From Escherichia phage UFV-AREG1: a stretch of 64,000 bases of DNA. The first letter of the stretch is position 1, and every line of letters starts with the position of its first letter. The notes under the pieces are model-generated. The model was not told the origin of the DNA. It saw only the letters and a list, made by a program, of their open reading frames with translations, and made no database searches. The stretch lies in sequence record KX009778. The stretch is one strand, 5' to 3'. The translations under genes were made by a program, and so were the position numbers. Of the stretch, positions 2,230-39,730 are shown piece after piece.

Positions 2230-3430
2230 ATTTTGTAATAATGTCAAACTGTTCTTTAAAGCAGAAGCTTGAATCTTGATGCTGATACAAAAATTCATAT
2301 GCTTTTTCTCGCTCATGATCATAAAGAGCTCGGTCAGATGACAGTTCTTTAATACGTTCAAATGTTGATTCCATATCATTTTCATCAAACCAAATGATAC
2401 CGCTATCATGCGAGGTCAAAGGAGTATTATCAACACGGAATTTTAAATTTTCGCCAGTAGATTTCCAAAATACTGGAATTGTTCCACACGCGCCAAGCTC
2501 GAGATGAGTATATTCTAAAGAACGTTGTAGATATTTTTTGTCCAACTTACTCAGCTGATAACCAAATCCGGATTTACTCATGCGTTCAAGCATTTCGCTA
2601 TTTACATAACGGTCAAGAATTTGCGTTGGCAAATTAGGAGCAATTTTAATTTGGTCTACTTGATGAAGACGATAATACTCGTATGGAATTCCTTTTTCTT
2701 TAATAGGAATGAACGCTGGAGAACGTTCCAGACCTTCCATAATAGTACTTAGTCCTGCAGGTTTAAGATGTTTTTCGTGAAAATCAAACATCTGATAAAA
2801 ACCTTTCCATGTAGTCGTACGACCAATCCAACGGTTGATATTCATGTTAATTTCAGAAACATCTTTCCAGTAGGTTGACCGAACCTTCGCAATATCCATA
2901 GGAGGCTGAAAGTTATATACTGTCGGTGCTTCTTCAATATCATCAAACAGAGAAACAGTTTCTGGATACCACTCTTTCATCAGAACTTTATTAAAATCAC
3001 CATTATCAGAATGGCTAAAAATAACATCAGCTCGACGAACAGTTTCTTCTAATCCCAAATTTCGACGCAAAGAAAGAGAAGAATGGTCATGTTGATAAAC
3101 TACAACACGAACAGAAGGTTTAATGTTATCAATAATTTTTTTATAGTTATTAATAGTGTCTTCTTCAACCGAAGTAGCAGGAACTGAATTGATAATTAGA
3201 ATATCACAATCATTTACCAGCTTAAGTGTTTTATCATATTCTTTTGCCAATAAAACCGGAATTGAAAATGATTTATAATCATGCGCGCAGTTACGAGTAA
3301 ATGATTTATCTTTAGCATAAACCAAAGTTACTTCATGACCATTTTTAATAAACCAATCACGCTGCTCAAGAGAAAATTTAGTTACACCGCAACCTTCAAG
3401 ACCTCGAGCCATAAAAATACATACTTTCAT
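2228..3430 (-). CDS. a-gt: DNA alpha-glucosyltransferase
   Basis: 400-aa ORF MKVCIFMARGLEGCGVTKFSLEQRDWFIKNGHEVTLVYAKDK; near-identical to recalled T4 alpha-gt N-terminus and same length. Confidence 0.9.
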   Translation of the reverse strand: MKVCIFMARGLEGCGVTKFSLEQRDWFIKNGHEVTLVYAKDKSFTRNCAHDYKSFSIPVLLAKEYDKTLKLVNDCDILIINSVPATSVEEDTINNYKKIIDNIKPSVRVVVYQHDHSSLSLRRNLGLEETVRRADVIFSHSDNGDFNKVLMKEWYPETVSLFDDIEEAPTVYNFQPPMDIAKVRSTYWKDVSEINMNINRWIGRTTTWKGFYQMFDFHEKHLKPAGLSTIMEGLERSPAFIPIKEKGIPYEYYRLHQVDQIKIAPNLPTQILDRYVNSEMLERMSKSGFGYQLSKLDKKYLQRSLEYTHLELGACGTIPVFWKSTGENLKFRVDNTPLTSHDSGIIWFDENDMESTFERIKELSSDRALYDHEREKAYEFLYQHQDSSFCFKEQFDIITK

Positions 3431-3455
3431 TTAATATCCTCATTGTTTTTGGTTT

Positions 3456-8238: not shown

Positions 8239-9067
8239 TTATATATTTCCAATTATAGCCTTCAACACTTTTACGTTCGCCATTTAAACATTTTAAAATA
8301 TTTCCTTTGCTAGAAATATTAAAATATTTTGCTGCGTCTGGTATATAATTAAATGTTTTTAAAAGAACACCATCTTTATATGCGCCAAATAAATTAAGAG
8401 TATATTTTTCTCGAAGACGCTGATGTTTCCTTTTCATAACCTCAGGATTTGCATACGCCAACTTCAATGAATTTCTGTGTTTTTCTTTTACTTCAGGTTT
8501 TTGCATTGCTAACTTAGTTAGCCTGGAAATTTTATTTCTAACTTCGTCAGTTTTCATTGCATTTGACAAATTTAATAAAGTTTTATTTCTAACTTCAGGT
8601 TTTTGCATTGCTAACTTAGTTAGTTCTCTATGTCTTTTTCTAAAATCGTCATCCTTCCATATATTTTTCGATAATTTTGACATAGAGCGGTGAAATAATT
8701 CCTTTTCACTGGAATACAATTTAAAAATTTCATCCAATTCATCCGCATTAAATCTATCGGTATTCGAGTTTATCATTCTATGAAAGGCATAACACATTTT
8801 ACTATTGCTTGTTTTAGCTAAATAGTAATGAGCTAACGCATGGTCATAATATGACAAATTAACAATATTCCATTTATCTGTTTTATATTCAGGAAATATA
8901 GATTTGGGAAGCACGTGATGTGCTTCCGTTTTTCCTTTTATTTTAGGATTATTATAATTTTTTGTTATCAAATCAACATATGACAATAGTAAATCATTAT
9001 TTTCTTCAAATATTAAAGCTAATTTATCATTCACAAAATCGCAAGGATAAAATCTATCATAATTCAT
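8228..9067 (-). CDS. HNH-family homing endonuclease (Mob-like), freestanding between nrdD and nrdG
   Basis: 279-aa ORF with HNH-like motif EAHHVLPKS...NIVNL...HALAH; three 17-aa tandem repeats; C-terminal GERKSVEGYNWKY motif; first 13 codons duplicate the nrdG N-terminus. Confidence 0.75.
   Translation of the reverse strand: MNYDRFYPCDFVNDKLALIFEENNDLLLSYVDLITKNYNNPKIKGKTEAHHVLPKSIFPEYKTDKWNIVNLSYYDHALAHYYLAKTSNSKMCYAFHRMINSNTDRFNADELDEIFKLYSSEKELFHRSMSKLSKNIWKDDDFRKRHRELTKLAMQKPEVRNKTLLNLSNAMKTDEVRNKISRLTKLAMQKPEVKEKHRNSLKLAYANPEVMKRKHQRLREKYTLNLFGAYKDGVLLKTFNYIPDAAKYFNISSKGNILKCLNGERKSVEGYNWKYINEL
8239..9063 (-). mobile_element. Homing-endonuclease gene insertion at the nrdD/nrdG junction
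   Basis: About 40 bp at 9031..9070 is a diverged copy of the nrdG start region 8201..8240 (both contain TCATAATTCATT); the HEG sits exactly between nrdD stop and nrdG start. Confidence 0.6.
8478..8630 (-). repeat. Three tandem ~51-bp coding repeats inside the HNH endonuclease gene
   Basis: Repeated DNA blocks containing cttcaggtttttgcattgctaacttagttag; encode repeated LTKLAMQKPEV peptide motif. Confidence 0.7.
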
Positions 9068-10881
9068 TGGTGTTTAACCCTATGCATGATTTCTTTATTT
9101 TTACCGAGATTAAATCCGCGTTCATTCGGATTTCCCAAATAACCACATGTTCTTCTTATTGTGTTCATCTTTTTAGGATCAGTTTCTCCACAGATAGAAC
9201 AAACAAATCCGTTTTCAGTAGGAGTCATTTCATGGGTACTTCCGCATGTAAAACACTTATCTACTGGCATATTAACACCAAAATAATCTAAATACTGTGC
9301 AGCATAATCCCACACGGCCTCAAGACCTTTTAAGTTATTTTTCATATCTGGAAGTTCAACATAAGAAATGTGACCGCCGGTCGCAATGAAATGATATGGC
9401 GCTTCACGAGAAATCTTTTCAAACGGAGTAATATTTTCTTCTACTGAAACATGGAAACTGTTAGTGTACCAGCCTTTATCGGTAACATCTTTTACACTTC
9501 CATATTTTTCTGTATCAAGTTTACAGAAGCGATAACAAAGGTTTTCAGCAGGAGTCGAATATAAACTAAAAGCAAATCCAGTTCTTTCAGTCCACTGTTT
9601 AAGATGAGCATTCATTTTAGTTAAAATTTCTTGTCCAATATCACGACCGACAAGAATATTCAATTCGTGAATACCAATGTATCCTAGGGACACTGAACTT
9701 CTACCGTTTTTAAATAACTCAATTATATCGTCATCAGGTTTAAGACGAACCCCGAATGCACCTTCTTGGTAAAGAATAGGAGCAACAGTTGCTTTAACTC
9801 CTTTTAAGGAACTAATTCTACACATCAAAGCTTCAAAACATAAATCCATTCGTTCATTGAACAATTCGATAAATTTCTGTTCATTGAACTGTGTTCCAAT
9901 ATAAGAATCTAATGCGATACGAGGAAGATTCAGTGTTACAACACCAAGATTATTACGTCCATCAAGAATTTCATTACCAGTCGAATCTTTCCATACGCTC
10001 AAGAAACTACGGCAACCCATTGGAGAAACCGGAACTGAAGAACCAGTAATAGCTTTATTATTCTTAACCGAAATAATGTCAGGATACATTCTTTTGCTTG
10101 CGCACTCTAGAGCAAGCTGTTTAATATCATAGTTCGGATCGTTTTTATAAAGATTAACACCTTCTTCAACAAACATAACAAGCTTAGGAAAAATAGGAGT
10201 TATCCCATCACGACCAAGACCTTTAATACGATTTTTCAGAATTGCTTTCTGAATCATTCGTTCAGTCCAGTCAGTTCCCGTACCAAATGTAATTGTTACA
10301 AAAGGCGTTTGCCCGTTTGAACTAAAAAGAGTATTTACTTCATATTCATAAGCTTGGAATGCATCGTATACATCTTTTTCTGTTTTAGATTGAGCATAAT
10401 TCAACGCATCAGCGATTTGCCATTTTTCTGCATCCTCAATATGTTTTGCATAGGTGCGTTTAACATAAGGAGAAAGTACTTTATCTACATTAGCAAAAGT
10501 CGTTCCGCCGTATTGATGGGAAGCAACCTGTGCAGTAATTTGTGCCATAATTGCGGTAGCAACTCCAATTGATTTAGGAGTTTCAATCTGTGCATTACCT
10601 AGCTTAAATCCGTTTTCAAGCATTCCTTTTAAATCTACTAAACAGCAATTAGTAAATGGAAGAGCAGGGGAATAATCAATATCGTGGAAATGGATAATTC
10701 CGCTTTCATGCGCTTTCATAATAAAAGACGGGACCATATTTTTGGCAATGTGTTTAGACACAATACCAGCCATAAGGTCCCGTTGAGTTGGAAAAACACG
10801 AGAATCTTTATTAGCATTCTCGTTTAAAAGGTCTTTATTAGTTTTATGAATCAATCCTTCAATTTCTTTTTCAATTGTCAT
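9064..10881 (-). CDS. nrdD: Anaerobic ribonucleoside-triphosphate reductase NrdD, uninterrupted
   Basis: 605-aa continuous ORF ending with glycyl-radical motif RRTCGYLG and C-terminal Cys cluster; no intron. Confidence 0.92.
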   Translation of the reverse strand: MTIEKEIEGLIHKTNKDLLNENANKDSRVFPTQRDLMAGIVSKHIAKNMVPSFIMKAHESGIIHFHDIDYSPALPFTNCCLVDLKGMLENGFKLGNAQIETPKSIGVATAIMAQITAQVASHQYGGTTFANVDKVLSPYVKRTYAKHIEDAEKWQIADALNYAQSKTEKDVYDAFQAYEYEVNTLFSSNGQTPFVTITFGTGTDWTERMIQKAILKNRIKGLGRDGITPIFPKLVMFVEEGVNLYKNDPNYDIKQLALECASKRMYPDIISVKNNKAITGSSVPVSPMGCRSFLSVWKDSTGNEILDGRNNLGVVTLNLPRIALDSYIGTQFNEQKFIELFNERMDLCFEALMCRISSLKGVKATVAPILYQEGAFGVRLKPDDDIIELFKNGRSSVSLGYIGIHELNILVGRDIGQEILTKMNAHLKQWTERTGFAFSLYSTPAENLCYRFCKLDTEKYGSVKDVTDKGWYTNSFHVSVEENITPFEKISREAPYHFIATGGHISYVELPDMKNNLKGLEAVWDYAAQYLDYFGVNMPVDKCFTCGSTHEMTPTENGFVCSICGETDPKKMNTIRRTCGYLGNPNERGFNLGKNKEIMHRVKHQ

Positions 10882-13197: not shown

Positions 13198-14123
13198 TTC
13201 AATACCTCAATAGCATTACGTAAACCATTTGCTTTTGCATTAAGAGCTTTTAACAATTTGGTGTGTTCTGCAATTTGGGCTTCAACTTCAATTAAGCGAG
13301 CATTGAGATATTCACGTTCTTCGCTCAGGTTATCAACCTTTTCTACTTTAGGTTCTTTTACAATTGGCTTGTATGTATTAGGGTTCTTCAGTTTAATTAG
13401 AATGCGTGAGCTGTATAACATTGAACCATTATCTTCGGTTTCGTCATACATTTCCACTACGTCCATCATCTCCACCATCGTGCAGAGTTTATAAGACAAC
13501 GAACGAATAGTTTTGTTGTGCTTATTAATTTCTCTAGCTGTCATGGTGCCGAGATTACGTGAGTAATAATAAGGAACCTGGATATTAATTAATACTGATG
13601 AACCACCTGGCTTGTGTGTTACTTCATCAGCAATAACCCAGTCCTTAACATGAACTGTATTTGTACGGTCATCACCCGCGGTAAACAGTTTGCGAGCATG
13701 CTTAAAAAGCATATTCACTTGGTCATTGAATTGACAGGCGAATTTATCAGCAAATTTAGTTTCAGGAATGGTAGATAACCAATCAGCCAAGTGGGTCTTT
13801 TTAACATCGTTAACAATAGTAAATTCAACCAAATCGGTTATAGATGTCGCAGATTTAATGAAGCTCGGCTTCATAAAGTTTTTAATGTTATCACTAGCTA
13901 CAGTAGAAGATAACAGACGAGAACGTTTAAACCATTGAAGCAAATTGCCTAACGAATGAGAATAAGCGTTTTGAGTATCTTTACAGATATGATTTTCCTG
14001 GCCAACATATTGAAGGAAATCACGAAGAATATTATTGATTACTGCTCTGTGCCCGATCTGATAATTACGATGTTTAGTAATAAGACTGTCAAAATAATCA
14101 ATATAATGTTTACGAGTTTTCAT
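13194..14123 (-). CDS. hypothetical protein, coiled-coil paralogue A (309 aa)
   Basis: Globular N-domain, Pro/Lys-rich linker, about 45-residue C-terminal heptad-like helix; shares FKxSRLLS and MVEMMDVVE-type motifs with the next three ORFs. Confidence 0.7.
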   Translation of the reverse strand: MKTRKHYIDYFDSLITKHRNYQIGHRAVINNILRDFLQYVGQENHICKDTQNAYSHSLGNLLQWFKRSRLLSSTVASDNIKNFMKPSFIKSATSITDLVEFTIVNDVKKTHLADWLSTIPETKFADKFACQFNDQVNMLFKHARKLFTAGDDRTNTVHVKDWVIADEVTHKPGGSSVLINIQVPYYYSRNLGTMTAREINKHNKTIRSLSYKLCTMVEMMDVVEMYDETEDNGSMLYSSRILIKLKNPNTYKPIVKEPKVEKVDNLSEEREYLNARLIEVEAQIAEHTKLLKALNAKANGLRNAIEVLK

Positions 14124-21341: not shown

Positions 21342-21790
21342 TCAGCCTTATATTCAATAACAGGACACACTTTAGCTTTACGGGCTTTTAAAAATTCGAC
21401 GATAATAGATTTCTTAGGTTGAATAGGAGGTAAACCTTTATACGCCCTATCAATATTTTCTACATGTAAAGCATAATCCTTTTTCCATTTATAATCTTTA
21501 TATTTTTCACGCAGTTGTGCAGGAATAACAAATGAACCAATAATAAGTAAAACAAGCAAAATGGCAAGTATAAATGCTGATGGAATAAGAGTCCATAAAC
21601 TACCAAAAATAAGCCAACGTTGTAAACTTTCTGCGCAGATAATAGTTAGACCTGCGAGTATAGTACATCCGAAAAAAAGAAACGAAAAATGTAGGAATAA
21701 CAATAGACCAAAAATACGCGCATAGTGTCTTAGGTCGTTTCCATTCATCATTAAACATTTTGAATAATTTATAGTGCCAAGAGCTTTCAT
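21338..21790 (-). CDS. membrane protein (about 3 TM helices)
   Basis: 150-aa ORF with hydrophobic segments; stop/start overlap with upstream gene. Confidence 0.6.
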   Translation of the reverse strand: MKALGTINYSKCLMMNGNDLRHYARIFGLLLFLHFSFLFFGCTILAGLTIICAESLQRWLIFGSLWTLIPSAFILAILLVLLIIGSFVIPAQLREKYKDYKWKKDYALHVENIDRAYKGLPPIQPKKSIIVEFLKARKAKVCPVIEYKAE

Positions 21791-21802
21791 TAATAATCAT
21801 AA

Positions 21803-22324
21803 TTATCCTTTCATTGAAGGTGTAACGGTTGTTAAATACTTAATCATAGCTTCAGCTTCTGATTTTGATAATGAAATTTCTCCATTGTTTTGACGAATAG
21901 AAATAAAATCCGGATGACGGTCACCGCCCGCTTTCAAAACACACATATAGGTATCAGTTTCATCTTCAATATTTGAAATAATTGAAGCAGTTCCGCATGA
22001 ATGCGGTTTTTGATAAATCAATACGGCTTTTCTTCCACCGTTTGACTGTTCATAAACTTTTAACACATCAAACAAATCACTTCTTTTATCAATAGCTAAG
22101 ATGTTATTTTCATCTTCAATGTTAAATCCTTCGGATACTTCATAAAGCGTCACCCATAAATCACCTATATCGATAGTAGCATTTACTTTTCCATGACTTT
22201 CAAGAGCACGGCAAATTTTCTTGATTTCGTCATAACTCATTTTAATAATATCATCTCCTTGAATAAGGAAGATGTCATTTTTAAATTCAACACGAATTAA
22301 ACCACTTTCACTTGAAATAAACAT
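21803..22324 (-). CDS. hypothetical protein (173 aa), paralogue of next ORF
   Basis: C-terminus SKSEAEAMIKYLTTVTPSM resembles TKDEAIALKTYLDSVIPTM of 22331..22888. Confidence 0.6.
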   Translation of the reverse strand: MFISSESGLIRVEFKNDIFLIQGDDIIKMSYDEIKKICRALESHGKVNATIDIGDLWVTLYEVSEGFNIEDENNILAIDKRSDLFDVLKVYEQSNGGRKAVLIYQKPHSCGTASIISNIEDETDTYMCVLKAGGDRHPDFISIRQNNGEISLSKSEAEAMIKYLTTVTPSMKG

Positions 22325-25429: not shown

Positions 25430-25618
25430 TTAGTCCTTAGTTAAATTTTCTAAATATGTTTCTAAATCATTTTCAGCTTTATCGATAGATTTTACTAATT
25501 CGTAGTATGTTTCAGCATCTCCATAATCCGAAGCCAATTCAAAAGATAAATCTCGTTCTAAACTAATAATTTCGCTGATTAAAAATCGTATTTCATTCTT
25601 TTGTTCGCGAGTAATCAT
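25430..25618 (-). CDS. hypothetical small acidic protein
   Basis: ORF track. Confidence 0.5.
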   Translation of the reverse strand: MITREQKNEIRFLISEIISLERDLSFELASDYGDAETYYELVKSIDKAENDLETYLENLTKD

Positions 25619-25821
25619 AAGGAATCTATATAATCAATAAGTTCTTGTTCTTTATCGTCTAAATCTTTACACAGTTCTTCATATTCATCGGTATTAAAAG
25701 GACCGCATTCATCACAAACTTTTTCCAATTCATTGTTTTTATCCATAACTTCATGAATAAGAGAAAACAGTCGGTCTTTTTGTTCTTTACTTAAACTCAT
25801 AACCATGTCACCTTTAAGCAA
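25615..25821 (-). CDS. hypothetical small acidic protein
   Basis: ORF track. Confidence 0.5.
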   Translation of the reverse strand: MLKGDMVMSLSKEQKDRLFSLIHEVMDKNNELEKVCDECGPFNTDEYEELCKDLDDKEQELIDYIDSL

Positions 25822-26009
25822 TATTCTTCTACGTGTTGTTTACGTTTATTTTTATCTATAAAAGTATATTCAACATATTCGCCGATATACCATTTATCGG
25901 TGTTGTGTTGACTTTTTATAGGGCATTTAGTTACTCGTGTTTCGGTCCAGTGTCGAATAATTTCCGCTTTATTTTTAGGATCAAACGGATGCGGGTAATG
26001 TACTTTCAT
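25797..26009 (-). CDS. hypothetical protein (70 aa)
   Basis: ORF track; overlaps both neighbours. Confidence 0.45.
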   Translation of the reverse strand: MKVHYPHPFDPKNKAEIIRHWTETRVTKCPIKSQHNTDKWYIGEYVEYTFIDKNKRKQHVEEYCLKVTWL

Positions 26010-26460
26010 AATCCACCACTATTAAATCAATATCAGGAGTAAACATGTCGATTAATTTAGAAACCTTATCCCAATCACCGCCAGCAATACCACAACCTAT
26101 GCGTGGAATGTAAATTACTGGTTTAAACAAAAGGGTTTCTGCCTGTAGATTTAATTCTATCATGCAGTTTACTAAAGCACCATAATCAAGATTAGGACCC
26201 GGTTCGTATTGTGTATACAGGTTATAGCATATACCAAATCCTGTAGGATTATGTTTAAAAACAATAGACATATCGCCTAATTTATCACGAGAACCGTACT
26301 CAGTAGTGGTTTTATCTATTTCTAAAATTTTAGGATAGGCTCTTGCTAATTGACCCGCTACACCTGAACCCATAGTATGAAAACAGTTGCACCCGTGCGC
26401 AATAATATTACCTTGAAGAAATAGGGCGACAATATCGCCCTTGATATATTTTACAATCAT
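25981..26460 (-). CDS. Macro-domain protein (putative ADP-ribose binding or hydrolase)
   Basis: 159-aa ORF; KGDIVALFLQGNIIAHGCNCFHTMGSGVAGQLARAYP resembles macro-domain GDI...NAAN...GGGV signature. Confidence 0.6.
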   Translation of the reverse strand: MIVKYIKGDIVALFLQGNIIAHGCNCFHTMGSGVAGQLARAYPKILEIDKTTTEYGSRDKLGDMSIVFKHNPTGFGICYNLYTQYEPGPNLDYGALVNCMIELNLQAETLLFKPVIYIPRIGCGIAGGDWDKVSKLIDMFTPDIDLIVVDYESTLPASV

Positions 26461-29858: not shown

Positions 29859-30010
29859 TTCTTCTCTCTAAATTTGGGCCATTCCATGGCGCATGAATTG
29901 TCCATTTCTGTATTTACCCATTACCGCACTTGGGCTCGACCTTATTACAGGTTGGCGGGAATCCCTCACAGAATCATGAGGTCCAGCTTGTTCCCATATT
30001 TCTTATTTGC

Positions 30011-30484
30011 TTATTTGAATGATTTAACGTACTGAATAGAACCTTTACTATTCACAAAGGCAATTTTACCATTTTTGTTATACATGGTAGCAGTACGCTG
30101 ATAGCCATAAGTTTGTTTACCAGATTGATAACCAACTAATGCGAAATTATCTTCACCCATTTTATTCTGTTTAGCGCGAATACGTTCATGGCCATGTGCC
30201 ATAAGAACCTTAGCATCACCAGTTGCAATGGATCGACGAGTTTTTTCATCTTCAACTGTATTAACAAAATCGTCAAATGAATCAAATTTAGCATGAGATT
30301 TATTATACAGTTTTCCATCTACTGCATAATTATATCCTTGTACATCCATCTCAACTTCTGTACCATCATCCAATACAGCAGTGATTTTCTGACCTTTTTT
30401 AAATTTCAAAAGATCAGTAAAAGATTCAGCAATAATTTGAGAATTAATAGCTGCTTCAGTGATAAATTCTTGATATGTTTTCAT
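30011..30484 (-). CDS. Head internal protein candidate with capsid-targeting sequence (ipIII position)
   Basis: N-terminus MKTYQEFITEA matches T4 internal-protein CTS cleaved by prohead protease; located just downstream of e on the minus strand as in T4; body unlike recalled T4 IPIII. Confidence 0.7.
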   Translation of the reverse strand: MKTYQEFITEAAINSQIIAESFTDLLKFKKGQKITAVLDDGTEVEMDVQGYNYAVDGKLYNKSHAKFDSFDDFVNTVEDEKTRRSIATGDAKVLMAHGHERIRAKQNKMGEDNFALVGYQSGKQTYGYQRTATMYNKNGKIAFVNSKGSIQYVKSFK

Positions 30485-30572: not shown

Positions 30573-31541
<969 letters not shown>

Positions 31542-31560
<19 letters not shown>

Positions 31561-35122: not shown

Positions 35123-35677
35123 TTACCGGTAGCGACCCGGTTTCTCATTTGGTATTTCAAATTGTGTAGATTTAGTATCTAATTTTTTAACTATGGAACT
35201 TATGTCATGAAAGAAAAACCATTCGCCATTTATATGGTCCTGATTATAAATGCTGTGCATATATTTTTCAAGTTCTACTGCATCCTGGGAATATCTAAAT
35301 GATACTATTTTAAAACTTTTAAACGGTGAAAATGTATTTGCTGTTATAACTCTAACATCAGGTTCTATACTTCTTCCTATTTTATAATAATTAGGATTTG
35401 TAGTATCTACCATTATGTATACGAAAGCCTGTCGATAGCTTTTTTCTATATCAAATTCATCTTTAAATTTCAAAAGATTTAGGGCGGCAGTCCTACAAAA
35501 TACTTTCCATTTTGACAAGCGTTTAGCTTTAGTCATAGAAAAGAATTTTTTCTTATCTGTTATTTTAAGAAAAGCAACATTTTCAATTAGTTCTTGTGTT
35601 ATTTCAAAATTACCATGGTATATTAATCCAGCTTTTATAGCCAAATTAATTTGGTCCCAGTCTACATCACTTCTCAT
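35123..35677 (-). CDS. T5orf172/GIY-YIG-like domain protein inside the RNA gene cluster
   Basis: 184-aa ORF; VYIMVDTTNPNYYKIGRSIEPDVR resembles GIY-YIG-related T5orf172 signature. Confidence 0.55.
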   Translation of the reverse strand: MRSDVDWDQINLAIKAGLIYHGNFEITQELIENVAFLKITDKKKFFSMTKAKRLSKWKVFCRTAALNLLKFKDEFDIEKSYRQAFVYIMVDTTNPNYYKIGRSIEPDVRVITANTFSPFKSFKIVSFRYSQDAVELEKYMHSIYNQDHINGEWFFFHDISSIVKKLDTKSTQFEIPNEKPGRYR

Positions 35678-35698
35678 AATATTATTCTCTCAATAATT

Positions 35699-35775
35699 TG
35701 GCCAGGGTGAAAGGATTCTAACCTTTAACCTGCGGTTTAGAGGACCGCTACTCTATACAATTGAGTTACACCCCG
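35699..35775 (-). tRNA. tRNA-Arg (anticodon UCU), CCA encoded
   Basis: Hand-folded cloverleaf: acceptor CGGGGTG/CACCCTG, D-stem ACTC/GAGT, anticodon stem GCGGT/ACCGC with loop CCUCUAA, T-arm AAAGG-TTAGAAT-CCTTT; position 33 is C, which is atypical. Confidence 0.6.
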
Positions 35776-35901
35776 TAATTAGTTCACAGCAATACCTACT
35801 CCAACAATCAAGATGTCTTCACACGAAATTAAGAGAAAAGTGATCAGTTCAACCCTTATAATCGCGTCAAGTAGATATTAATGTGACAACTGTCACAAGT
35901 T

Positions 35902-35976
35902 TGGCGGACATGCATGGATTCGAACCATGGACCAATTGATTAACAGTCAACTGCTCTACCACTGAGCTACACATCC
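35902..35976 (-). tRNA. tRNA-Asn (anticodon GUU), CCA encoded
   Basis: Hand-folded: GGATGTG acceptor, TAGCTCAGTGGTAGAGC D-arm, anticodon loop CUGUUAA, T-loop GGTTCGAATCC. Confidence 0.7.
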
Positions 35977-35980
35977 AAAT

Positions 35981-36067
35981 TGGTGGGGAGTGATGGAGTC
36001 GAACCACCCGAGTCGCAATGACAATGGATTTACAGTCCACACCGCTACCTCTACGGGATAACTCCCC
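35981..36067 (-). tRNA. tRNA-Tyr (anticodon GUA), long variable arm, CCA encoded
   Basis: Hand-folded: anticodon arm GTGGA-CUGUAAA-TCCAT, 87 nt with long variable arm typical of bacterial tRNA-Tyr. Confidence 0.65.
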
Positions 36068-36076
36068 AAATTAATT

Positions 36077-36153
36077 TGGTGACCCAGACCAGATTTGAAC
36101 TGGTAACCTTTCCCTTATGAGGGGACTGCTGCTAACCATTGAGCTACAGGGCC
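36077..36153 (-). tRNA. tRNA with CAU anticodon (Ile2 or Met), CCA encoded
   Basis: Hand-folded: acceptor GGCCCTG, anticodon loop CUCAUAA, T-arm ACCAG-TTCAAAT-CTGGT. Confidence 0.65.
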
Positions 36154-37033: not shown

Positions 37034-37423
37034 TCAGCCTTCATCAACAATAGTATGAGTGTGGGCATTTACAATTTGCCACCAATCAAAGCGATTATAA
37101 CCATACATCGGTTTGTTTTCATTTTCTTTGATAATATCACGGAGTTCATCTTCGGTAGCGGCTTTCGCGATTAAATCAGCATATCCACCACGAGGATAAT
37201 AATTATCACCTGCAAAAAGTAAAAAGTTCGGTTTAATATTATTGAACTCTTCAAGAGTAATAACTTTTCCTGTCGGTTGAACAATCTCTACATATTTATA
37301 TCCTAATTTTTGAGCAGCATCTACTGCTTCAAGCAAAGTATCATGAGCCCATCCAATTTGACAACCTGGCTTTTCAGATGGATTAGCCTGATAATCCGCG
37401 TACACTTTATACATTCTATTCAC
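37034..37423 (-). CDS. hypothetical protein (129 aa)
   Basis: ORF track. Confidence 0.6.
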   Translation of the reverse strand: MNRMYKVYADYQANPSEKPGCQIGWAHDTLLEAVDAAQKLGYKYVEIVQPTGKVITLEEFNNIKPNFLLFAGDNYYPRGGYADLIAKAATEDELRDIIKENENKPMYGYNRFDWWQIVNAHTHTIVDEG

Positions 37424-37601
37424 CTTTAGAAATTTTATCCATAACGATAGCGATTAAACCAATTAAAAATGCTACTACAAGTGAAAACACATTTTCTGCT
37501 GTAGTTAATAATCCGCATATAAATCCAGCAAACATTGAAAAACTAAAAGCAGAAGCAGAAATTGCAATAGCAACATTTCGAATTAATTCACAACGTTTCA
37601 T
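37416..37601 (-). CDS. small membrane protein
   Basis: ORF 37416..37670 trimmed to Met MKRCELIRN downstream of early promoter; hydrophobic helices. Confidence 0.5.
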   Translation of the reverse strand: MKRCELIRNVAIAISASAFSFSMFAGFICGLLTTAENVFSLVVAFLIGLIAIVMDKISKGE

Positions 37602-37629
37602 TTTATTCTCCTCAGTAGTTGATAGGGTA

Positions 37630-37659
37630 ATAGTATCACTACTAAAACCCAATGTAAAC
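37630..37659 (-). promoter_or_regulatory. Early promoter-stem-loop unit (IP locus)
   Basis: GTTTAC-18nt-TACTAT; -10 lies in loop of inverted repeat GTAGT/ACTAC. Confidence 0.6.
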
Positions 37660-37662
37660 AAT

Positions 37663-37887
37663 TTATTCAACGCCAGCGGCTTTCAAAAGTTTTTTAAGAT
37701 TGGCAACACCTTGAGCAGAAAATGTGACCTTGCCACCTTTTTCACTGATAGAACCAACCAATTTAGCAAGTTTATCATTAGGAATTTTTTTAAAATCAGC
37801 CAATGTTCCATCAAAGGTTTTTGAAACAAAAGGCAGTTCGTCTTCGCGTCTTTTAGCTTCTACAATAAATTCTTGATATGTTTTCAT
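37663..37887 (-). CDS. Head internal protein candidate with CTS (74 aa)
   Basis: N-terminus MKTYQEFIVEA; own early promoter-stem-loop upstream. Confidence 0.65.
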   Translation of the reverse strand: MKTYQEFIVEAKRREDELPFVSKTFDGTLADFKKIPNDKLAKLVGSISEKGGKVTFSAQGVANLKKLLKAAGVE

Positions 37888-37915
37888 TTTATTCTCCTCA
37901 GTAGTTGATAGGGTA

Positions 37916-37945
37916 ATAGTATCACTACCCCATCTAAAAGTAAAC
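37916..37945 (-). promoter_or_regulatory. Early promoter-stem-loop unit (IP locus)
   Basis: GTTTAC-18nt-TACTAT with flanking inverted repeat. Confidence 0.6.
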
Positions 37946-37955
37946 GGTTTATAAA

Positions 37956-38264
37956 CTATTTTATTCCGCGTGATGCAATTGTGTTCTGCCGTTTAACGCC
38001 AGTTTGTTTAAAGTCATGATTGTCGATTTGATCGGTACGAGCAACTCCGAATGATGATTTGATCTTAGCTTTAGATCCTTTAGTTATAGAAATAAACATC
38101 TCGGAAGCCCCTTTCTTAAAGTCCGAAGCGATTACTTCAACGCCGTTCTTAGCAAGTGACTTCAGAATTGCCTCTGCATACTCATCGTCAAGACTCGTCT
38201 GAGTATTAATAACGAATGTCTTTGGCGCAGCCGCTTCATTGATAAATTCTTTGAAAGTTTTCAT
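37956..38264 (-). CDS. Head internal protein candidate with CTS (102 aa)
   Basis: N-terminus MKTFKEFINEA; own early promoter-stem-loop upstream. Confidence 0.65.
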   Translation of the reverse strand: MKTFKEFINEAAAPKTFVINTQTSLDDEYAEAILKSLAKNGVEVIASDFKKGASEMFISITKGSKAKIKSSFGVARTDQIDNHDFKQTGVKRQNTIASRGIK

Positions 38265-38294
38265 TTTATTTTCCTAATTAAGTTTGATGAGATA

Positions 38295-38324
38295 ATAGTA
38301 TCACAACCCTATTTAAAAGTAAAC
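38295..38324 (-). promoter_or_regulatory. Early promoter-stem-loop unit (IP locus)
   Basis: GTTTAC-18nt-TACTAT. Confidence 0.6.
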
Positions 38325-38597
38325 TCATTTTAAATAAATTGCGTATTTTTTATAACCCGCTGACTCATGACGAAGACCCTTATCATTAGCAAAACGCTCA
38401 ATGTTGTTAATTTGATTCTGGTCAAGTTCAGAGATGTCAAACACGAAAAAGTTACGTTTGTTACCAACTGTTACATAGTCAGTTAAATCAATATCATATA
38501 GGTAATTGATGTCAGCAATCAAAGTCTTGACAGCTTTGCTAATTTTTACTTTTTCGTTAAAAGTAGCTTCATTGATAAATTCTTGATATGTTTTCAT
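38325..38597 (-). CDS. Head internal protein candidate with CTS (90 aa)
   Basis: N-terminus MKTYQEFINEA; own early promoter-stem-loop upstream. Confidence 0.65.
   Translation of the reverse strand: MKTYQEFINEATFNEKVKISKAVKTLIADINYLYDIDLTDYVTVGNKRNFFVFDISELDQNQINNIERFANDKGLRHESAGYKKYAIYLK

Positions 38598-39033: not shown

Positions 39034-39730
<697 letters not shown>

What the first reader, a model, noticed from the sequence alone, without database searches (positions are those of the whole stretch)
25981..26460. Macro-domain protein beside tk
The 159-aa ORF has a macro-domain-like signature (GDI...NIIAHGCN...GSGVAG). Macro domains bind or hydrolyse ADP-ribose derivatives. T-even phages encode ADP-ribosyltransferases (Alt, ModA, ModB), and hosts use ADP-ribosylation (DarT-type) and NAD-derived signals in defence, so a phage macro domain could either tune phage-driven ADP-ribosylation or reverse host-imposed modification.
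Basis: partly seen in the sequence, partly recalled or inferred. Interest (0 to 1): 0.5.

Follow-up and report, generated by a model that had tools for sequence, protein, structure and literature searches.

The report
T4 tk.4/adfM macrodomain, divergent allele

Summary

A 2025 preprint renamed T4 tk.4 as adfM: deleting it sensitises T4 to DarTG2, which ADP-ribosylates thymidine in DNA.

Two refinements came from this work.
- The protein is not DarG-type. The catalytic lysine (DarG K80, TARG1 K84) is an invariant glutamine (Q84), as in Streptomyces SCO6735, which removes thymidine-linked ADP-ribose using Gln85. PhiKZ "AdfM" is instead a true DarG-type lysine enzyme.
- This allele is only 58% identical to T4 Tk.4. 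It lies in a ~0.6-kb island of saturated synonymous divergence flanked by 95-100% identical DNA, so it is an old allele exchanged by recombination and kept under purifying selection.

Enzymology is untested for both alleles. Interest is low to moderate.

The parts
25981..26460 (-). tk.4 / adfM ortholog: 159-aa single-domain macrodomain protein
26383..26397 (-). Codons H22-G-C-N25-C26: active-site loop
   Evidence: H22, G23, N25 and C26 are invariant in 58 homologs. H22 and N25 align with SCO6735 H24 and N27. N27S nearly abolishes SCO6735 activity (PMC9411070). N25 aligns with PhiKZ AdfM N23, whose mutation (construct N23A) reduces activity.
26209..26223 (-). Codons N80-L-Y-T-Q84: glutamine at the position of the DarG/TARG1 catalytic lysine
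   Evidence: N80, Y82 and Q84 are invariant in 58/58 sequences. Q84 aligns with TARG1 K84 and directly with SCO6735 Q85. Q85A and Q85E abolish SCO6735 activity.
26071..26106 (-). Codons P119-RIGCGIAGGD-W130: phosphate-binding loop
   Evidence: P119, G122, G124 and W130 are invariant. The loop matches SCO6735 PRIGCGLAGGTW and BT1257 PRIGCGLAGGKW. TARG1 has its catalytic D125 where this protein has A126.
26457..26460 (-). ATGA overlap of the vs stop codon and the tk.4 start codon (translational coupling inferred)
   Evidence: ORF coordinates and sequence. T4 has the same arrangement.
25981..26009 (-). 29-nt overlap of the tk.4 3' end with the tk.3 start
   Evidence: In T4 this overlap is only 4 nt.
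25815..26420 (.). Island of deep divergence from T4, covering most of tk.4 and the 5' half of tk.3, flanked by 95-100% identical DNA
   Evidence: 60-nt windows are 42-80% identical to T4 inside the island and 93-100% outside. Synonymous divergence from T4 is saturated: tk.4 dS about 1.4 and tk.3 pS 0.76, against a flank dS of about 0.1; tk.4 dN/dS is 0.27. It is one of only two islands longer than 500 bp in the ~45 kb that aligns to T4.

Best explanation
The gene is the ortholog of T4 tk.4 (adfM). It encodes a stand-alone macrodomain of the TARG1/DarG/SCO6735 (ALC1-like) class that acts as an 'orphan antitoxin' against the host DarTG2 defence.

Proposed mechanism: on infection, DarT2 ADP-ribosylates thymidines in single-stranded phage DNA and blocks replication. 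The phage macrodomain binds the ADP-ribose moiety and cleaves the thymidine-ribose bond, releasing ADP-ribose and restoring replicable DNA.

The chemistry is most likely SCO6735-type rather than DarG-type. Q84, held in place by N25, orients the distal ribose for water-mediated hydrolysis, and no lysine nucleophile is involved. Direct binding and inhibition of DarT2 may add to the effect.

Shown: macro fold, class membership, orthology and synteny with T4 tk.4, and conservation of the SCO6735-type catalytic residues.
From the literature: T4 tk.4 is needed to resist DarTG2, and SCO6735 uses Gln85 to remove dT-ADP-ribose.
Inferred: this 58%-identical allele does the same thing, and does it enzymatically.
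For: - Orthology: gene order regB-vs.1-vs-tk.4-tk.3-tk.2-tk.1-tk is identical to T4. The protein is 58% identical to T4 Tk.4 with no gaps.
- Function of the ortholog: T4 tk.4 was the sole HIDEN-SEQ hit on a DarTG2 host, and its knockout is DarTG2-sensitive.
- Active site: Q84, N25, H22, G122 and G124 are invariant in 58 homologs. They align with SCO6735 Q85, N27, H24, G126 and G128. SCO6735 hydrolyses dT-ADPr on DNA, Q85A is dead and N27S nearly dead, and it protects cells from DarT.
- Selection: dN/dS of 0.27 despite saturated dS shows the allele is maintained as a functional gene.
- Precedent: a different phage macrodomain, PhiKZ gp104, removes DarT2-made ADP-ribose from TNTC DNA in vitro.
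Against: - No enzymology exists for T4 Tk.4 or for this allele; the preprint infers hydrolysis from homology.
- The allele is only 58% identical to the tested T4 protein.
- The two SCO6735 lysines that position DNA are not conserved: K34 aligns with S32, and K89 lies in an insert that is absent here.
- The canonical DarG lysine is absent.
- The T4 evidence is a preprint using one plasmid-borne DarTG2 system.
Confidence: 0.7

Rival explanations
1. Small-molecule ADP-ribose derivative processing. On this view the protein is a Poa1p-like ADP-ribose-1''-phosphate phosphatase or O-acetyl-ADP-ribose deacetylase, which is the basis of the historical 'A1pp phosphatase' annotation, and it clears by-products of RNA repair or NAD metabolism.
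Against: - The T4 knockout phenotype is specific to DarTG2, a DNA ADP-ribosyltransferase.
- Poa1p F152 aligns with A126 (wild-type GIFG against GIAG here).
- The C-terminal half matches SCO6735 and BT1257 much better than it matches Poa1p.
- No pathway that would make ADP-ribose-1''-phosphate was found among the neighbouring genes.
Confidence: 0.1
2. Non-catalytic counter-defence. The macrodomain would neutralise DarT2 mainly by binding the toxin, or would act as a sponge for an ADP-ribose-containing immune signal, rather than by hydrolysing modified DNA.
For: Catalytically dead SCO6735 Q85A still inhibits DarT in vitro, more strongly than DarG K80A or TARG1 K84A. The canonical lysine and aspartate are missing here. 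Deep allelic divergence, with surface residues free to vary, would fit co-evolution with a protein partner.
Against: The residues invariant across 58 homologs are the ones that line the catalytic and ADP-ribose pocket in SCO6735 (Q84, N25, H22, GxG loops), which is the pattern expected of an enzyme. PhiKZ AdfM and AdfN both need catalytic residues.
Confidence: 0.1
3. Regulation of the phage's own ADP-ribosylation. The protein would erase or tune the marks that Alt, ModA and ModB place on host proteins.
For: T-even phages do encode three ADP-ribosyltransferases (established knowledge), and PMC9503650 notes that phage ARTs and ADPr-processing domains are expressed early. Nothing found here links tk.4 to them.
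Against: - alt, modA and modB are not in this neighbourhood.
- tk.4 is dispensable on E. coli K-12 and becomes important only with DarTG2.
- From established knowledge, Alt and ModA/B modify arginine, a linkage that TARG1-class macrodomains are not known to cleave.
Confidence: 0.05
4. Reversal of RNA ADP-ribosylation, for example by the CmdTAC mRNA ADP-ribosyltransferase that targets T-even phages.
For: CmdT ADP-ribosylates mRNA and defends against T-even phages (PMC11618068). Some macrodomains reverse RNA-end ADP-ribosylation (PMC11833690).
Against: Wild-type T4, which carries tk.4, is robustly restricted by CmdTAC. SCO6735 was inactive on 2'-OH RNA ADP-ribosylation, and macrodomain hydrolases showed no activity on guanosine-ADP-ribosylated RNA.
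Confidence: 0.03

Closest known systems
T4 Tk.4 = AdfM (anti-DarT factor Macrodomain; bioRxiv 10.1101/2025.11.20.689424)
   Same: Same locus between vs and tk.3. Same length class (159 vs 155 aa) and full-length gapless homology. Same PHROG. Same invariant residues, including Q84, N25 and H22.
   Different: Only 58% identical. It lies in a recombinant island with saturated dS. The C-terminus is 4 aa longer, giving a 29-nt overlap with tk.3 instead of 4 nt. The phosphate loop is GCGIAGGDW here, matching the family consensus, against GAGIGKGNW in T4. This allele has not been tested.
Streptomyces coelicolor SCO6735 (PDB 5e3b; PMC9411070)
   Same: Stand-alone TARG1-class macrodomain. It has Gln at the catalytic position (Q85 = Q84 here), N27 = N25, H24 = H22 and a near-identical PRIGCGxAGGxW loop. 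It removes thymidine-linked ADP-ribose and protects against DarT.
   Different: It is a bacterial chromosomal gene. It has a 5-residue insert after the Gln that carries K89, and its K34 is Ser here. Pairwise similarity is modest (phmmer E 8.5e-8).
DarG antitoxin macrodomain of DarTG2 (PDB 5m3i, 5m31, 7omu)
   Different: DarG has the catalytic Lys in FPTK(K)HW and a PPLGxGNGGL loop; this protein has NLYTQ and PRIGCGIAGG. There is no C-terminal DarT-binding domain (NCBIfam 27.8 bits against a cut-off of 250) and no adjacent darT gene.
PhiKZ gp104 'AdfM' (Cell Rep 2026, PMC13309987)
   Same: A phage-encoded stand-alone macrodomain that counters DarTG2. Its catalytic Asn (N23) aligns with N25.
   Different: It is a true DarG-type enzyme: E 9.4e-25 to Mtb DarG, with an FPTK lysine. 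It is only remotely related to this protein (pairwise E 0.001 over 33 aa; 34 bits against the family profile). It is imported into the phage nucleus. The shared name AdfM covers two different lineages.
Bacteroides thetaiotaomicron BT1257 (PDB 2fg1/2afc)
   Different: It is an uncharacterised structural-genomics protein from a bacterium, so no function can be transferred from it.
Human TARG1/OARD1 (PDB 4j5r)
   Same: Top Foldseek hit (E 2e-10, TM 0.82). TARG1 also removes dT-ADP-ribose made by DarT (PMC8501950).
   Different: Both residues of its catalytic dyad, K84 and D125, are replaced (Q84, A126).

Membership tests
Macro domain superfamily (Pfam PF01661) | Sequence score above Pfam's gathering threshold over most of the domain | tested here: met
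   33.1 bits against a cut-off of 22, covering profile positions 2-117 of 118.
Macro domain superfamily (Pfam PF01661) | Alpha/beta macro fold | tested here: met
Macro domain superfamily (Pfam PF01661) | Glycine-rich ADP-ribose/phosphate-binding loops and the conserved Asn | tested here: met
   N25, G33, G122 and G124 are invariant and G31 nearly so (54/58) in 58 homologs.
TARG1/ALC1-like macrodomain class (TARG1, DarG, SCO6735, Poa1p, BT1257) | Closer in structure and sequence to this class than to MacroD, viral or PARG classes | tested here: met
DarG antitoxin (DarTG2) | Catalytic lysine (Taq/Mtb K80) in the FPTK motif | tested here: not met
   That position is Q84, invariant in 58/58 sequences. 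The DarG sequences show FPTKKHW.
DarG antitoxin (DarTG2) | C-terminal DarT-binding domain, giving a full-length protein of about 330-400 aa | tested here: not met
   The protein is a 159-aa single domain. NCBIfam DarG scores 27.8 bits against a cut-off of 250, matching profile positions 2-142 of 338 only.
DarG antitoxin (DarTG2) | Encoded next to a darT toxin gene | tested here: not met
   The neighbours are vs and tk.3, inside a T4 early-gene block.
SCO6735-type (Gln) thymidine-ADP-ribose hydrolases | Gln at the catalytic position, with the Asn that locks its rotamer | tested here: met
   Q84 = Q85 and N25 = N27 in a direct alignment. The functional data are in PMC9411070.
SCO6735-type (Gln) thymidine-ADP-ribose hydrolases | DNA-positioning lysines K34 and K89 | tested here: not met
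   K34 aligns with S32, and K89 lies in a 5-residue insert that is absent here. Other basic residues (K60; K/R at position 120) are conserved in the phage family, but their role is unknown.
SCO6735-type (Gln) thymidine-ADP-ribose hydrolases | Hydrolysis of thymidine-linked ADP-ribose on ssDNA | not testable with these tools
   This needs an in vitro assay on a DarT2-modified oligonucleotide.
T4 Tk.4 / AdfM ortholog group | Full-length homology and a conserved position between vs and tk.3 | tested here: met
   BLASTP E 1e-70, 58% identity, no gaps. Gene order is identical. PHROG 335 E 1.6e-71.
T4 Tk.4 / AdfM ortholog group | Required for phage growth on DarTG2-expressing hosts | not testable with these tools
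   Shown only for the T4 allele.
Poa1p-type ADP-ribose-1''-phosphate phosphatase | The residues probed by the deposited Poa1p mutants (H23, S30, F152) | tested here: inconclusive
   H23 = H22 (conserved), S30 = T29 (conservative change) and F152 = A126 (not conserved). I did not read the functional meaning of these mutants.

The most novel reading that the evidence does not exclude
The two deeply diverged tk.4 alleles that circulate among otherwise near-identical Tequatroviruses are kept by balancing or diversifying selection, because each neutralises a different set of host nucleic-acid ADP-ribosyltransferases. These could be different DarT2 variants or toxins not yet described. Specificity would come from substrate context or from direct toxin binding. 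On this reading the allele a phage carries would help set its host range against DarTG-type defences. T4-type AdfM would also be a glutamine-based, SCO6735-like enzyme recruited from stand-alone bacterial macrodomains, not from DarG.
Probability: 0.15. Interest if true: 0.5.

Novelty: already known. Interest (0 to 1): 0.22.

Why it matters
The finding confirms that a long-unassigned T4 "dark matter" gene belongs to the growing set of phage orphan-antitoxin enzymes (AdfN, AdfM) that erase DNA ADP-ribosylation imposed by DarTG defences. That function has already been published for the T4 ortholog, so the finding adds little as a discovery.

Two modest points may be new and are testable:
- T4-type AdfM has an SCO6735-like glutamine active site rather than the DarG lysine. 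This suggests a different catalytic mechanism and an origin different from that of PhiKZ AdfM.
- The gene is one of only two long, deeply diverged allelic islands in about 45 kb of otherwise T4-like sequence. That is the pattern expected of a gene in an arms race, and it could matter for predicting phage host range against DarTG2-carrying strains.

Tried and rejected
- tk.3 as a conserved functional partner, considered because the divergent island covers its 5' half: rejected. The small ORF that overlaps the macro gene in a distant phage (L004) shows no similarity, so tk.3 most likely hitch-hiked with the recombination tract.
- DarT linkage of bacterial relatives: the one chromosomal homolog examined (Pelagimonas, P0096) sits among housekeeping genes with no DarT nearby. 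This is a single case only.
- A dedicated promoter or terminator for the gene: promoter-like sites were at background level (17 found against 18.9 expected). The gene appears to be transcribed within the regB-to-tk block.
- A profile built from the C-terminal part only, meant to bring SCO6735 into the printed alignments, failed. A chimeric query then worked.
- Model coordinates are not exposed, so I could not map the allele differences onto the pocket and the surface.
- Three paper look-ups failed because a search term was too short and were repeated.

Full report
**Observation.** The ORF listing finds an ATG-initiated ORF of 159 aa at window 25981-26460 on the minus strand. The start codon overlaps the stop codon of the upstream ORF (ATGA at 26457-26460), and the 3' end overlaps the start of the downstream 70-aa ORF by 29 nt. 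The gene is therefore embedded in a tightly packed operon. Promoter-like matches in the region are at background level (17 found against 18.9 expected).

**Where the window comes from.** Megablast of 24800-27400 hits 744 phage records. The best are Tequatrovirus (T4-like) coliphages at 95-98% identity. Against T4 itself (NC_000866) the window is collinear with about 34.4 kb to at least 80 kb of the genome. The local gene order regB, vs.1, vs, [this ORF], tk.3, tk.2, tk.1, tk matches T4, where the corresponding gene is tk.4, annotated 'phosphatase; contains A1pp phosphatase motif'. 'Beside tk' is thus loosely right, because three small ORFs lie between.

**Is it a macrodomain?** Yes.
- Pfam Macro scores 33.1 bits (cut-off 22) across essentially the whole profile, and PHROG 335 gives E 1.6e-71.
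- The best NCBIfam model and the only PADLOC model hit are DarG, but they match only its macro part and fall far below the full-length cut-off.
- An AlphaFold2 model built on 58 homologs has pLDDT 94.7 and pTM 0.89.
- Foldseek against the PDB puts TARG1, BT1257, Poa1p, DarG (T. aquaticus, M. tuberculosis) and SCO6735 on top.

The protein therefore belongs to the TARG1/ALC1-like class.

**What is already known.** A November 2025 preprint (HIDEN-SEQ, 10.1101/2025.11.20.689424) infected a DarTG2-expressing host with a T4 transposon library. It found tk.4 as the single significant hit, showed that a clean tk.4 knockout is sensitised to DarTG2, noted AlphaFold similarity to the M. tuberculosis DarG macrodomain, and renamed the gene adfM. 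Enzymatic removal of ADP-ribose was inferred, not shown.

This complements AdfN (T4 30.3), a NADAR enzyme that reverses DarT1 guanosine ADP-ribosylation (PMC11825919). A 2026 Cell Reports paper independently gave the name AdfM to PhiKZ gp104, which removes DarT2-made ADP-ribose from a TNTC oligonucleotide in vitro and rescues cells from DarT2 toxicity (PMC13309987). A 2022 survey had already reported Macro domains in about 41% of myoviruses (PMC9503650).

**Refinement 1: the active site.**
- A profile of the family aligns TARG1 'LITK84' with 'NLYTQ84', and TARG1 'GCGLD125' with 'GCGIA126'. Q84 is invariant in 58/58 homologs, as are H22, G23, N25, C26, N80, Y82, P119, G122, G124 and W130.
- The literature states that DarG K80 and TARG1 K84 are equivalent catalytic lysines (PMC8501950).
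- It also states that SCO6735 carries Gln85 at that position, hydrolyses thymidine-linked ADP-ribose on DNA, is killed by Q85A or Q85E and almost killed by N27S, protects S. coelicolor from DarT, and inhibits DarT by interaction even when catalytically dead (PMC9411070).
- A chimeric query brought SCO6735 to the top of the printed alignments and gave a direct alignment: H22=H24, N25=N27, N80=N81, Q84=Q85, G122=G126, G124=G128. SCO6735 K34 aligns with S32, and K89 sits in a 5-residue insert missing here.
- The phosphate loop PRIGCGIAGGDW matches SCO6735 PRIGCGLAGGTW and BT1257 PRIGCGLAGGKW. BT1257 also has the N-x-x-x-Q motif.
- By contrast, the DarG structures and PhiKZ gp104 share TVNxVGVMG, FPTK and PPLGxGNGGL. 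gp104 hits Mtb DarG at E 9.4e-25 but is only remotely similar to this protein.
- T4 Tk.4 also has NLYTQ.

T4-type AdfM and PhiKZ AdfM are therefore different lineages of the same macrodomain class, and the T4 type most plausibly uses the water-mediated, Gln-positioned mechanism proposed for SCO6735. This part is inference from alignment.

**Refinement 2: the allele.**
- The protein is only 58% identical to T4 Tk.4, although the surrounding DNA is 95-100% identical.
- A 60-nt sliding comparison shows a sharp island of 42-80% identity from about 25840 to 26420, covering most of tk.4 and the 5' half of tk.3.
- Nei-Gojobori estimates give dS of about 1.4 for tk.4 and pS of 0.76 for tk.3. The values for tk, vs, vs.1 and regB are 0.11-0.16. 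dN/dS for tk.4 is 0.27.
- That is the signature of an old, functional allele moved in by homologous recombination, not of decay or recent rapid change.
- Across the roughly 45 kb aligned to T4, only two islands longer than 500 bp fall below 75% identity: this one and one at 13222-14018.
- The window-type allele (90% identity or more) occurs in about 311 phage records. The T4/T2 type is about 58% identical, and intermediate alleles of 62-81% also exist.

**Origin.** One chromosomal bacterial homolog (Pelagimonas, 40% identity) is stand-alone among housekeeping genes with no DarT neighbour, as SCO6735 and BT1257 are. Another homolog lies in a ~200-kb phage contig near an Acb5 anti-CBASS gene. 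The small ORF that follows the macro gene there is unrelated to tk.3.

**Rivals.**
- A Poa1p-like small-molecule phosphatase role cannot be excluded from sequence: H23=H22 and S30=T29, but F152=A126. It does not explain the DarTG2-specific T4 phenotype.
- A non-catalytic toxin-binding role has a precedent in SCO6735, but it fits poorly with invariance that is concentrated in pocket residues.
- Tuning of Alt/ModA/ModB marks has no support.
- Reversal of CmdT RNA ADP-ribosylation is unlikely, because wild-type T4 is restricted by CmdTAC.

**Verdict.** The function is already published for the ortholog. This allele is untested, so I give 0.7 confidence to the anti-DarT2 dT-ADP-ribose hydrolase model. 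The Gln-type active site and the recombinant allelic island are modest, testable additions. Interest is 0.22.

Noticed in passing
window 25797-26009 (tk.3) and 25815-26420: The island of deep divergence from T4 extends beyond tk.4 into the 5' half of tk.3 (73% aa identity, pS 0.76). In this phage tk.4 overlaps tk.3 by 29 nt, against 4 nt in T4. tk.3 has no known function (phrog_2008).
   Followed up: partly
window 25430-25618 (tk.1) and 25615-25821 (tk.2): tk.1 and tk.2 both match phrog_653 end to end, so they are tandem paralogs. They are also more diverged from T4 (89% and 82% aa identity) than the flanking tk, vs, vs.1 and regB (95-99%).
   Followed up: no
window 13222-14018: This is the only other long island (797 bp) in the aligned ~45 kb that is homologous to T4 but strongly diverged, at 47-65% identity. 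By offset it corresponds to the T4 nrdC.2/nrdC.3 region, whose genes have no known function.
   Followed up: no
window 3421-3447; 10343-10346; 8261-9046; 21343-22305; 35156-36079: These are presence/absence differences from T4 at homing-endonuclease loci. T4 mobB and the I-TevII intron of nrdD are absent, shown by clean junctions. The mobC, mobD and segB positions hold sequence with no T4 match.
   Followed up: no
window 30000-30452 and 37217-38575: These segments have no blastn match to T4. They lie where T4 carries denV/ipII/ipIII and trna.4/ipI, the internal-protein loci, which are known from general knowledge to be hypervariable.
   Followed up: no
window about 31104-31559 and about 39035-39493 (by offset from T4): Orthologs of T4 nudE and of 57B/acb1 lie on the same side of the genome. 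nudE is annotated as a Nudix hydrolase active on ADP-ribose, and 57B/acb1 is an anti-CBASS nuclease. NudE could in principle consume the ADP-ribose that the macrodomain releases; this is speculative.
   Followed up: no
window 26423-26441: A perfect 8-bp GC-rich inverted repeat (AGGGCGAT-ATT-GTCGCCCT on the coding strand) lies inside codons 7-13 of tk.4, just after the start codon that overlaps vs. The terminator scan picked it up on both strands. This stretch is 98% identical to T4. It could affect translational coupling or could be chance.
   Followed up: no
L004/L006 1541-1888 and 6001-6447: In a ~200-kb metagenomic phage contig, a 43%-identical macro homolog lies 4 kb from an Acb5 (anti-CBASS) family gene, which suggests a counter-defence neighbourhood.
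   Followed up: no
literature: Two groups assigned the name AdfM independently to two different macrodomain lineages. T4 Tk.4 is Gln-type and SCO6735-like; PhiKZ gp104 is Lys-type and DarG-like. This invites confusion in annotation.
   Followed up: yes
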